A stretch of 64,000 nt of DNA from the human T2T-CHM13v2.0 reference genome, Homo sapiens. The DNA is taken from assembly GCF_009914755.1 (NCBI RefSeq), contig NC_060926.1; one strand, 5' to 3'. Positions within the stretch are counted from its first letter, which is position 1; every line of letters begins with the position of its first letter. Shown in pieces: positions 27,729 through 63,904 of this stretch. A program made the translations under genes and the position numbers. The notes under the pieces were generated by a model, which had not been told where the DNA came from, ran no database searches, and saw nothing but the letters and a program-made list of their open reading frames with translations.

Positions 27729-28410
<682 letters not shown>

Positions 28411-31147: not shown

Positions 31148-31867
<720 letters not shown>

Positions 31868-61225: not shown

Positions 61226-61760
61226 AGAGAAAAAGAATTTTATTATTGTTATTGCTGCTCCTGTATTGATTTTGATAATAATTGGACATAGGTTAACTTT
61301 ATGACCTGAACAGCAGGCTCTCAGTAAATCTTTGAGGAAGGAAAAAAGGAGAAGGAGGGACAGAAGGATTGAGGAAGAGAGAAAAGGCTGTTTTTATAGC
61401 CCCAAAGCTGGTTTTTTACACAGGTATAGAAAACGCCTGCTTAATTGGTGTGATTTGAGCAGGGGTCTTTTTATAAATTTCTATATCAAAATGAAAACCC
61501 ACTTATAGCAGTTACCATCTCCACTCTGAAAAATGAAGTCAGCCGATCCAAAATTGAAGCCTACCAGAAAGATGCTTTAGTTATGGGTCAGTAAGAAGGT
61601 ACCAGAAGCCAGAAGGACATCTGATCTACCTCACACACACACAAACAAGCACTGGTGTTCAGAGTTACAACTTTTATGCCCTTTGGGGTCCCATTTAGCT
61701 TTTTGCTTTACTTTCCATTCACTCACTTACTCACTCACTCATTCATTCATTCATCATTCA

Positions 61761-61908
61761 TGCCCTGATGGCATCTCAGAATCAAATATTATTAGTGTTC
61801 TAGTATTCCCCATAAAGATATAGGTTTTGGCCAAAGAGTGTCTGGTTAGTGCATTTCCATCTAGGGTAACAAAGCTGGTTTACTTATGATAATAGAGCAA
61901 CTTGTTCC
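61761..61908 (+). repeat. Left arm of a ~145-bp inverted duplication
   Basis: Reverse complement of 63376-63518 at ~87% identity. Confidence 0.92.
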
Positions 61909-62982
61909 TCACCCTAAATTATGCAGCAATATGTGGATGAGTCTACAAGGCTCAATATCTTACCAAAAATTTGTAGTGTCAGTCTGAACTGGTATTTACA
62001 AATGAAGAGATGTTATTAGTGGAGCAATTTCATTAAATGAATATTGTGCCAAATTATCTCAAATTTATAAGATAACACTTAAAACAATTTTATGGAAAAT
62101 CGCTTCCAAAATTATGCCCTTATGAAATGCACACACTAATAACACACCACAAGGACACATAAATTATATAAGAGTCATATCCTTTTGCAGTTGCATACAT
62201 TGAATAATGTGATGTTTTTGCAAGAGCAAAAAGTATACTATGTTATTAAAACATACTGGCATTTTAAAATGTTACATTAAAATCACCATAGACAACTAGA
62301 AGATACAGAGGCACTAAAGACATAGTGTTTTGAGCAAGATGAGATTTGTTCCCCCTTTAAAGGGGAAAATAAAAATGCAAGACCACATATATAAAGAGAA
62401 TGAGATGAGCTTCAAATAGGAACTAAGAAGAGAAAGTCCCACCTGTAGCTATTTTGTAAAGTTTGCTACACTGAAATGAATCAAATCATCAAAAGTGTGA
62501 AGAATTCAGTTATTTAGCAATAACATGGAAACATCTCTTTCCATGAACTCCTAGGAATTGTGATGACTATGCCAATGGGAGAGATGAGAACCACTCATAA
62601 GGCTGAAAATGATGAGTCAACACCCCACTTGTTCAGAGAGCCCAGCCATGTGGAACGGCCCACAGTTCCATTCATGCACCACGCTGTTGTGTACATGTTC
62701 CCATATCCTACTTCTGTAGATTACAATTCTTCTGCTGCAAATACCTTTCCTTCTTGCCTCTCATTCTCTTCTTCTTTGGATCCTCTGGTGAGCCCAACTT
62801 CATCTTTCAAGATTTGGCTTTGGAGTAAAATCACTATGAAGACTTTCTTGACCCGAATTACCGCTTCCCCATTTGGCTCCTCATGCATCCCCTTCAGGAT
62901 ACTTGTTGGTTTCTGCATTACCTCTTCACTAGGCTATAGCTGTCTTCATCATCACTGTGAACCTAAGCCTCAGCATTACTAC

Positions 62983-63332
62983 CGTATCAGTCTGTTCTCA
63001 TACTGCTAATAAAGACATACTGGAGACTGAGTAATTTATAAAGGAAAGAAGTTTAATGGACTCACCATTCCACATGGCTGGGGAGGCCTCACAATCATGG
63101 CAGGAGACGAAGGAAGAGCAAAGGTTTGTCCTACATGGCACCAGGCAAGGTAACTCCACTTTATAAAACCATCAGATCTCATGAGACTTATTCACTATCA
63201 AGAGAAGAGCACAGGAAAGACCAAACCCTATGATTCAATTACCTCCCACTGGGTCCCTCCCATGACACATGGGAATTGTGGTAGCTACAATTGAAGGTGA
63301 GATTTGGGTGGGAACATGGCCAAAGCATATCA
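62983..63332 (-). mobile_element. THE1B/THE1C solo LTR
   Basis: gtatcagtctgttctcatactgctaataaagacata...gagatttgggtggg...catatca. Perfect TSD ACTAC at 62978-62982 and 63333-63337; DUX4-type tgattcaatta at 63231-63241. Confidence 0.92.
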
Positions 63333-63375
63333 ACTACTAACACAGATGGGTGCATATTTGTTGAACAGTGAAAGG

Positions 63376-63518
63376 GGAACAATTTTGCTGTATTGTCATA
63401 AGTAAGCCAGTTTTGTTTCCCTAGATTGAGATGCACTAACCACACACTCTTTGGCCATAACCTTTGCATGGAATACTAGGACACTAATAATGTTTGATTC
63501 TGAGAAGCCATCAAGGCA
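63376..63518 (-). repeat. Right arm of a ~145-bp inverted duplication
   Basis: Reverse complement of 61761-61908. Confidence 0.92.
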
Positions 63519-63904
63519 GGAGCCTGTATCAAAATGAATAATGATTTGGCAGTAAGGTAACCTAGAATTGTGTGGTGGCTTGGCCATTTGGTAGTTGTTT
63601 TGTGGCTTTGGACAAGATTTGGTACTTCAATAATCCTTAGCATCCTCATTGATAATATGAGGATCATGGAATGGGATTGGACGACAAAGGCTTCTTGGAG
63701 CATAAAATCCATTATTCCTGATCAACTTTAGTTATATATTATACTAAATATATAACTAAATATATTTATTTAGTTATATATTATTCTATCTTTTTTATGT
63801 CTAAGGTCTATATATCCTAGCTCTTCAAATATATTGCAAAGTCATCTAAGACATGGTATGGACCATCTTTTCATTAATTTTGCAAAGCATTTAGACAGGC
63901 TTCT

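What the first reader, a model, noticed from the sequence alone, without database searches (positions are those of the whole stretch)
61761..63518. Hidden ~145-bp inverted duplication of apparently unique sequence around a 1.47-kb spacer
Seen: 61761-61908 (tgccctgatggcatctcagaatcaaatattattagtg...ggccaaagagtgtctggttagtgcat...ctagggtaacaaagctggtttacttatgataatagagcaacttgttcc) is the reverse complement of 63376-63518. By eye there are ~18 substitutions in ~142 aligned bases, plus a 6-nt and a 1-nt indel. I do not recognise the arms as Alu, L1, L2, MIR, MaLR or MER sequence. The spacer holds an L2 relic and a THE1 LTR with its own TSD. The right arm contains an acceptor-like ttttgtttccctag (ending 63424), with a donor-like aag|gtaacc near 63557. 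Inference: candidates are (a) long TIRs of an uncatalogued DNA transposon or foldback element, (b) the scar of a template-switch inversion that could support recurrent inversion of the spacer, or (c) a long-range RNA duplex (ADAR substrate, endo-siRNA source or splicing regulator) if transcribed.
Basis: partly seen in the sequence, partly recalled or inferred. Interest (0 to 1): 0.8.

Follow-up and report, generated by a model that had tools for sequence, protein, structure and literature searches.

The report
Old two-copy inverted duplication, LINC00299 intron
A stretch of about 150-210 bases occurs twice, in opposite orientations about 1.4 kb apart and nowhere else in this human genome; it is most likely the decayed scar of an old local copying or inversion error, not a mobile element.

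Summary
Core arms 61758-61908 and 63376-63521 are reverse complements: 126 matches, 19 mismatches, a 6-nt and a 1-nt indel, 86.9% identity. Weaker homology extends to 61726-61935 and 63341-63556.

Each arm finds only itself and its partner in the 3.1-Gb assembly. Two core patterns show no excess of near-matches over controls, and the near-matches do not extend.

The transposon reading fails four tests:
- no other copies in the genome;
- no target-site duplication at three candidate ends;
- no protein-family hit in the spacer;
- the spacer holds a repeat (62003-62331) that looks much older than the arms.

The high-copy LTR at 62983-63332 and its 5-bp duplication are confirmed. The L2 relic is not.

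Best reading: a fixed local inverted duplication, tens of millions of years old. It arose either as a templated inverted insertion or as an inversion of the spacer with one duplicated breakpoint. Only outgroup genomes can decide, and none is held here.

The arms could form a strong RNA duplex, but nothing suggests selection for it. Recurrent inversion now is unlikely: the longest identical tract is 14 nt. Interest is low.

The parts
61758..61908 (.). Left arm, well-supported core (151 nt)
   Evidence: It is 86.9% identical to the reverse complement of 63376-63521. In the genome it finds only itself and the right arm.
63376..63521 (.). Right arm, well-supported core (146 nt)
   Evidence: In the genome it finds only itself and the left arm.
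61909..61935 (.). Inner extension of the left arm. It pairs with 63341-63375 at lower identity, with 4-nt indels.
   Evidence: 12 of 2000 shuffles reach the score. Homology stops here even with the LTR removed.
63341..63375 (.). Inner extension of the right arm. It begins 4 nt after the right copy of the LTR's target-site duplication.
61726..61757 (.). Possible outer extension of the left arm. It consists of a (CACT)n/(CATT)n tetranucleotide run and pairs weakly with 63522-63556.
   Evidence: 147 of 2000 shuffles reach the score, so this extension is doubtful.
63522..63556 (.). Possible outer extension of the right arm
   Evidence: Doubtful, as for the left side.
61936..63340 (.). Single-copy spacer (1405 nt; 1050 nt without the LTR and one copy of its target-site duplication)
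   Evidence: There is no inverted or direct homology to the flanks. Rfam gives no hit above a family's gathering score. Pfam gives none above its cut-off.
62003..62331 (.). Copy of an old, unnamed interspersed repeat inside the spacer
   Evidence: Five other genome places match at 70-77%, or 65-75% by sensitive blastn. Those copies are 61-66% alike among themselves, so the repeat looks older than the arms. None of the 5 loci carries arm-like sequence.
62983..63332 (-). Solo LTR of a high-copy family (THE1/MaLR by recall, orientation by recall). It is flanked by the 5-bp duplication ACTAC at 62978-62982 and 63333-63337.
   Evidence: 6780 first-look candidates, and 39 of 39 scored non-self matches at 82-84%. 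One search shows the duplication.

Best explanation
The two arms are paralogous copies of one ancestrally unique stretch of about 150-210 nt. They were made once, by a local rearrangement, in a primate ancestor. They have drifted apart neutrally since, by about 7% per arm. They are not the ends of a mobile element, and they are not two copies of an interspersed repeat.

Two routes give exactly this picture and cannot be told apart from one genome:
1. A templated inverted insertion. The growing strand, or a resected break end, switched to the complementary strand 1.1-1.4 kb away, copied about 200 nt, and switched back. My odds are about 45%.
2. An inversion of the spacer in which one breakpoint was staggered or replicated twice, leaving that breakpoint's sequence at both ends in inverted orientation. 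This is the dupINV/INVdup type, or the staggered-break model. My odds are about 35%.

Shown: two copies only, in inverted orientation, with this divergence, no target-site duplication, and a spacer that holds older sequence. Inferred: the mechanism, the age, and neutrality.

The pair lies in an intron of LINC00299 (hub annotation). If transcribed it would fold into a long imperfect duplex, as a by-product.
For: The inverted homology is real and far above chance.

There are only two copies in the genome:
- Each arm used as query gives 2 first-look candidates, both scored: itself and its partner.
- A 26-nt core pattern with up to 3 mismatches gives the 2 arms plus 1 hit, against 0 in the control. 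That hit does not extend: score 19 against a shuffle maximum of 22.
- A second, 25-nt pattern gives 6 hits against 11 in the control. The 4 extra hits score 19-22, against 98 between the arms.
- A sequence model of the arms finds only the arms in the window.

The same genome search does detect repeats at 70-77% identity.

The spacer contains a repeat whose copies are only 61-77% alike. It therefore looks older than the 87%-identical arms, so the spacer was probably already there when the copy was made.

Mismatches are spread evenly (longest identical run 14 nt). Transitions roughly equal transversions (9:10), there are no CpGs, and several indels are present. This fits neutral decay without recent gene conversion.

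Precedent from papers (passages read):
- Inverted duplications of ancestrally unique sequence at inversion breakpoints have a median length of 321 bp and a minimum of 46 bp. Duplicates average about 88% identity. In 12 inversions the duplication comes from one breakpoint only (PMC1885836).
- CNV-flanked inversion classes dupINV and INVdup, and interspersed duplications, are recognised in human structural variation (PMC5338099).
Against: No outgroup genome could be consulted. The single-copy ancestral state, the age and the orientation of the spacer are therefore all inferred.

No curated repeat library (Dfam/RepeatMasker) was available. A very old, very diverged, low-copy family (under about 65-70% identity) could escape the genome search, whose first look is heuristic.

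No microhomology or other junction signature can be read after about 13% divergence and a microsatellite expansion at the left outer edge.

The argument that the spacer is older than the arms assumes neutral clocks and no gene conversion between the arms.
Confidence: 0.8

Rival explanations
1. The arms are the long terminal inverted repeats of a single surviving copy of an uncatalogued DNA transposon or foldback element, with the spacer as its interior.
For: The geometry fits: long inverted ends around 1.1-1.4 kb. The arms match no repeat I could model.
Against: There is no other copy of either arm in 3.1 Gb. No direct repeat flanks any of three candidate end pairs. No protein-family hit reaches its cut-off among 7 open frames. 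The interior holds a repeat older than the arms, and the other five copies of that repeat have no arm-like flanks within about 1.5 kb.
Confidence: 0.03
2. The arms are two independent insertions of an old, low-copy or highly diverged interspersed repeat that happen to lie in opposite orientation.
For: No curated repeat library was available, so this cannot be excluded formally. By eye I suspected L2-tail-like and MIR-like stretches at the arm edges. A 12-nt word at 63354-63365 matches my L2-tail profile (E 0.3).
Against: Independent copies of an old family should be no more alike than the family average. Yet these two are 87% identical, and nothing else in the genome reaches even about 70%. 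Pattern searches show no excess over controls. My MIR and L2-tail profiles detect other copies in the window at E down to 1e-9 or 1e-10, but nothing in the arms.
Confidence: 0.07
3. The duplication is ancient, and the arms have stayed alike because a long-range RNA duplex or a paired regulatory element in the LINC00299 locus is under selection.
For: A strong predicted duplex forms on either strand: -230.2 and -211.8 kcal/mol, against about -91 for shuffled partners. The locus lies inside an annotated lncRNA intron (hub table).
Against: 19 mismatches and three or more indels are spread evenly. Only 2 of the 19 mismatch columns remain G-U pairs on the annotated minus strand, against 7 on the plus strand. 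There is no Rfam match in the arms. The arms overlap no RefSeq functional element (hub table).
Confidence: 0.05
4. The arms were once adjacent, as a fold-back palindrome made at a hairpin-capped break, and the spacer grew later by insertions.
For: The LTR in the spacer is an insertion with its own duplication. Fold-back inverted duplications with short spacers are described (PMC3907307; search listing and start of abstract only).
Against: Without the LTR, 1050 nt of spacer remain. This includes a repeat copy that looks older than the arms and about 700 nt with no detectable repeat identity.
Confidence: 0.05

Closest known systems
Inverted duplications at inversion breakpoints (staggered-break model; Ranz et al. 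2007, PMC1885836; passages read)
   Same: Both are inverted copies of ancestrally unique, non-repetitive sequence bracketing a segment. The size falls within the reported range (46 bp to about 1.9 kb, median 321 bp). The duplicates have decayed to about 88% identity. The one-sided case, with only one breakpoint's sequence duplicated, is described.
   Different: The described cases are Drosophila inversions of cytological size. Here the bracketed segment is only 1.05-1.4 kb, in a primate. That the spacer is actually inverted relative to the ancestor is untested.
Complex structural-variant classes dupINV/INVdup and inverted interspersed duplication in human genomes (Collins et al. 2017, PMC5338099; passages read)
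   Same: The end product is the same: an inversion with a flanking duplication, or a nearby inverted extra copy.
   Different: Those are polymorphic or de novo variants, mostly kilobases to megabases long, found by read pairs. This one is apparently fixed and old, and its duplicated part is only about 150-210 nt.
Short-range template-switch mutations and microinversions in great apes (PMC7954356, listing and start of abstract only; PMC8755829, passages read)
   Same: A replication or repair switch to the complementary strand nearby creates or uses inverted repeats.
   Different: The events described there are tens of nucleotides long (microinversions of 17-33 nt, flanking repeats of 3-75 nt). 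Here about 200 nt were copied across more than 1 kb.
Inverted Alu pairs as intronic dsRNA and ADAR substrates (general knowledge, recalled)
   Same: Two inverted homologous stretches about 1-2 kb apart in an intron, able to form a long imperfect duplex.
   Different: The arms are not a dispersed repeat, so the duplex has only one possible partner. No editing data were seen.

Membership tests
DNA transposon / foldback element with long TIRs | Multiple copies of the termini in the genome | tested here: not met
   Only the 2 arms were found. Pattern searches show no excess over controls. The near-matches do not extend.
DNA transposon / foldback element with long TIRs | Target-site duplication directly outside the TIRs | tested here: not met
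   The flanks at end pairs 61726/63556, 61758/63521 and 61761/63518 share no direct repeat.
DNA transposon / foldback element with long TIRs | Interior of the same age as the termini, or transposase remnants | tested here: not met
   The interior holds an older repeat whose copies are 61-77% alike, against 87% between the arms. Pfam gives nothing above its cut-off on 7 open frames.
Independent copies of a known interspersed repeat (Alu, L1, L2, MIR, MaLR) | Similarity to the family's other genomic copies or its consensus | tested here: inconclusive
   No genomic relatives were found. Home-made MIR and L2-tail profiles do not hit the arms. No Dfam/RepeatMasker was available, so very diverged families cannot be excluded.
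Inversion-associated inverted duplication (staggered break / dupINV) | Inverted copies of otherwise unique sequence at both ends of a segment | tested here: met
Inversion-associated inverted duplication (staggered break / dupINV) | The bracketed segment is inverted relative to the ancestral order | not testable with these tools
   No outgroup genome is held. No old repeat spans a junction that could show the ancestral continuity.
Inversion-associated inverted duplication (staggered break / dupINV) | A second inverted pair from the other breakpoint (two-sided form only) | tested here: not met
   For 61936-62135 vs the reverse complement of 63557-63756, 938 of 1000 shuffles reach the score. For 61520-61725 vs the reverse complement of the sequence left of the right arm, 116 of 1000 do. 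The one-sided form remains possible (PMC1885836).
Templated inverted insertion by template switching (FoSTeS/MMBIR type) | The source lies nearby on the complementary strand, and the copy is inserted in inverted orientation | tested here: met
   The arms are 1405 nt apart and inverted.
Templated inverted insertion by template switching (FoSTeS/MMBIR type) | Microhomology at the two junctions, and an empty site in outgroups | tested here: inconclusive
   The junctions are blurred by divergence and by a tetranucleotide run at 61726-57. Outgroups are not available.
Segmental duplication (conventional definition, recalled: at least 1 kb and at least 90% identity) | Length and identity thresholds | tested here: not met
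   The arms are 151-210 nt long and 77-87% identical.
Long intramolecular dsRNA / ADAR substrate | Both arms in one transcript, a long duplex, and observed A-to-I editing | not testable with these tools
   Only the duplex is predicted. Intron membership rests on the hub's gene table. No expression or editing data were seen.

The most novel reading that the evidence does not exclude
The pair is an old duplication kept by selection as the one-partner stem of a long-range RNA duplex that loops out about 1.4 kb of the LINC00299 primary transcript. In that role it would serve as a specific ADAR or Dicer substrate, or as a processing signal. It would be a non-repeat counterpart of inverted Alu pairs.
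Probability: 0.04. Interest if true: 0.55.

Novelty: new member of a known kind. Interest (0 to 1): 0.15.

Why it matters
On its own it matters little. It is one more fossil of local template switching or micro-inversion in a lncRNA intron, with no sign of function.

It is a clean example, with unique sequence and exactly two copies, of a class that repeat annotation does not label. If outgroups show the spacer flipped, it documents a fixed 1-kb inversion with a duplicated breakpoint in the primate lineage. Events of that size are hard to find.

It also marks a place where a transcript could form a duplex with a single defined partner. That could be checked cheaply against public editing data.

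Tried and rejected
1. L2 and MIR by eye. I thought the inner 35 nt of the right arm were an L2 3' tail and the right flank a MIR, which would have shown which arm is the original.
- I fetched 30 of the 214 genomic loci that carry a recalled MIR core motif, and 25 of 25 that carry a recalled L2-tail motif, and built profiles from them.
- The profiles found other copies in the window: 8 MIR hits at E<1e-4, and 4 L2-tail hits at E<1e-6.
- In the arms and spacer they found only a 12-nt word (63354-63365, E 0.3) and the tetranucleotide run at 61742-61753. I dropped the idea.
- The first L2 profile was contaminated with high-copy (Alu-like, name recalled) sequence upstream, so it served only as a rough check.

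2. Further homology behind the LTR. With the LTR removed in a script, no homology continues past 61935/63341. The observed score of 12 equals the shuffle mean of 12.0, and in the restricted test 935 of 2000 shuffles reach the score. That excision kept one base too many on each side. Correct coordinates were established and used.

3. A second inverted pair from the other breakpoint: none found.

4. Profile-level search of the whole genome. A DNA alignment and a sequence model were not accepted for this genome. Only single-sequence and pattern searches could be run there, so relatives below about 65-70% identity remain untested. The model was run on the window only.

6. Rfam. Two matches, both below the gathering scores, to archaeal-type C/D snoRNA families in the spacer (E 0.068 and 0.27). 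I took them as chance.

7. Pfam. Two matches below cut-off (E 0.041 and 0.53). I took them as chance.

8. A literature search on LINC00299 (listing only, 12 of 130 papers). Nothing in the titles or abstract starts listed bears on this site.

Full report
**What is there**

The window's last 2.3 kb contains a genuine inverted repeat. The repeat finder gives two ungapped blocks: 61822-61900 vs 63385-63463 (79 nt, 89%) and 61758-61809 vs 63470-63521 (52 nt, 90%).

Aligned globally, the core arms 61758-61908 and 63376-63521 have 126 matches, 19 mismatches and 7 gap columns (a 6-nt and a 1-nt indel). Identity is 86.9% and the K2P distance 0.144. There are 9 transitions and 10 transversions, no CpG in either arm, and GC of 0.38 and 0.40.

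With sensitive scoring the homology runs from 61726-61935 to 63341-63556 (224 columns, 76.8%, E 2.8e-35).
- The inner extension is credible: 12 of 2000 shuffles reach its score.
- The outer extension is doubtful: 147 of 2000 do. On the left it consists of a tetranucleotide run.
- Past these limits nothing is homologous, even with the LTR cut out. There is also no second inverted pair.

The signal is far above chance. The arm-to-arm local score is 98. The maximum for 150 random windows, each compared with its own downstream 2 kb, is 42 and the mean 13. Of the 6 inverted pairs within 5 kb in the whole window, the strongest other pair coincides with high-copy matches seen. I did not classify all five.

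**Copy number**

- Each arm, used as a query against the 3.1-Gb assembly, produced two first-look candidates, both scored: itself and the other arm (83%, E about 1e-35).
- The same tool detects repeats at 70-77% identity when they exist and thousands of LTR copies.
- A 26-place core pattern with up to 3 mismatches hit the two arms plus one place on another chromosome, against 0 in the control. That place does not extend: score 19 against a shuffle maximum of 22.
- A second, 25-place pattern gave 6 hits against 11 in the control. The four extra places score 19-22, which is the pattern itself.
- A sequence model of the arms finds only the arms in the window.
- A profile-level search of the whole genome was not possible. 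Relatives below roughly 65-70% identity are therefore not excluded.

**The spacer (61936-63340, 1405 nt)**

The LTR is confirmed.
- 62983-63332 belongs to a family with at least 6780 first-look candidates.
- 39 of 39 scored non-self matches are 82-84% identical, and most span the whole query.
- ACTAC lies on both sides, at 62978-62982 and 63333-63337.
- The name THE1 and the minus orientation come from my memory of the family.

62003-62331 is a copy of an unnamed old repeat.
- Five other places match at 70-77%, or 65-75% by sensitive blastn.
- Those copies are 61-66% alike among themselves.
- None of the five loci carries arm-like sequence within about 1.5 kb.

Profiles that I built from genomic MIR and L2-tail copies find other copies in the window but nothing significant in the arms or spacer.

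Rfam gives only two chance-level matches in the spacer and none in the arms. Pfam gives nothing above its cut-off on 7 open frames.

**What it is**

A transposon with long TIRs is contradicted on four counts.
- There are no further copies.
- No target-site duplication lies at any of three candidate end pairs.
- There is no transposase trace.
- The interior includes a repeat that looks much older than the arms.

Two independent copies of an old repeat would not be 87% alike while nothing else in the genome reaches 70%.

What remains is a single local event that copied about 150-210 nt of unique sequence into inverted orientation 1.05-1.4 kb away. Two routes give this product:
- a templated inverted insertion, made by two template switches with about 200 nt of synthesis on the complementary strand;
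- an inversion of the spacer in which one breakpoint's sequence ends up at both ends (staggered break, or two switches with about 1.3-1.6 kb of synthesis).

I put these at about 45% and 35%. They cannot be separated without an outgroup. No old repeat spans a junction, and the junctions are too decayed to read microhomology.

Both routes have precedent in passages I read.
- Ranz et al. describe inverted duplications of unique sequence at inversion breakpoints. They report a median length of 321 bp, a minimum of 46 bp, about 88% identity, and one-sided cases (PMC1885836).
- Collins et al. list dupINV, INVdup and interspersed duplications among human complex variants (PMC5338099).
- Short-range template switching and microinversions in apes act at a smaller scale (PMC8755829, passages; PMC7954356 and PMC2621351, listing only).

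**Age (inference)**

- 0.144 substitutions per site between the arms means about 0.072 per arm.
- The LTR differs by 16-18% from its closest relatives, so it carries a similar or somewhat larger load.
- With recalled primate neutral rates this puts the duplication at tens of millions of years, roughly 35-65 My, near the time the LTR family was active.
- Even spacing of mismatches, with a longest identical run of 14 nt, argues against recent gene conversion.

**Consequences**

- Recurrent inversion. Homologous recombination is said to need 50-250 bp of homology (PMC8755829, passage). The arms now share no identical tract longer than 14 nt, so recurrent flipping today is unlikely. It may have been possible soon after the event.
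- RNA duplex. The arms would form a strong duplex in RNA of either strand: -230.2 kcal/mol on plus and -211.8 on minus, against about -91 for shuffled partners. The site lies in a LINC00299 intron on the minus strand (hub table).
- Pairing constraint. Only 2 of the 19 mismatch columns stay paired as G-U on the minus strand, against 7 on the plus strand. That is not significant and gives no hint of constraint.
- No expression, editing or small-RNA data could be consulted. A search on LINC00299 returned nothing bearing on this site among the 12 titles and abstract starts listed, out of 130 papers.

**Verdict**

Of the interpretations, (b) is supported in its structural part, (a) is rejected, and (c) is possible but unsupported. 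This is a new example of a known kind of rearrangement scar, of low interest unless outgroups or editing data show otherwise.

Noticed in passing
window 63747-63782: An AT-only quasi-palindrome with a 16-bp stem and a 4-nt loop (34 of 36 self-complementary) lies about 190 nt right of the right arm. Its DNA fold is -10.9 kcal/mol, z = -4.66, and 0 of 200 shuffles fold as well. Such AT-rich hairpins are known fork-stalling and break sites, so it could have been the trigger of the rearrangement. This is speculation.
   Followed up: partly
window 63333-63341: The LTR's insertion site lies only 4 nt from the inner limit of detectable homology in the right arm: the duplication is at 63333-63337 and the homology starts at 63341. 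This may be coincidence. Alternatively, the breakpoint of the duplication fell at the LTR edge, or the LTR integrated at the arm boundary.
   Followed up: no
window 61700-61757: A tetranucleotide run, (CACT)n then (CATT)n, sits exactly at the outer edge of the left arm. The right arm has only a short related word at the matching place. This looks like microsatellite growth after the duplication, or filler at the junction.
   Followed up: partly
window 62003-62331; loci L005-L009: An unnamed old interspersed repeat of about 300 nt. The genome search returned only five relatives, at 70-77% identity. I could not name the family without a repeat library.
   Followed up: partly
window 62524-63009 (+): A 161-codon stop-free frame runs through the spacer into the LTR. 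Pfam gives only a chance-level match (E 0.041, 14 bits against a cut-off of 27).
   Followed up: yes
window 27889-28200 vs 31399-31716: This is the strongest inverted pair of the window (80.4% over 321 columns, 3.2 kb apart). Both members coincide with high-copy, Alu-like (name recalled) matches. It is an ordinary inverted repeat pair, also inside the region before LINC00299's annotated end.
   Followed up: no
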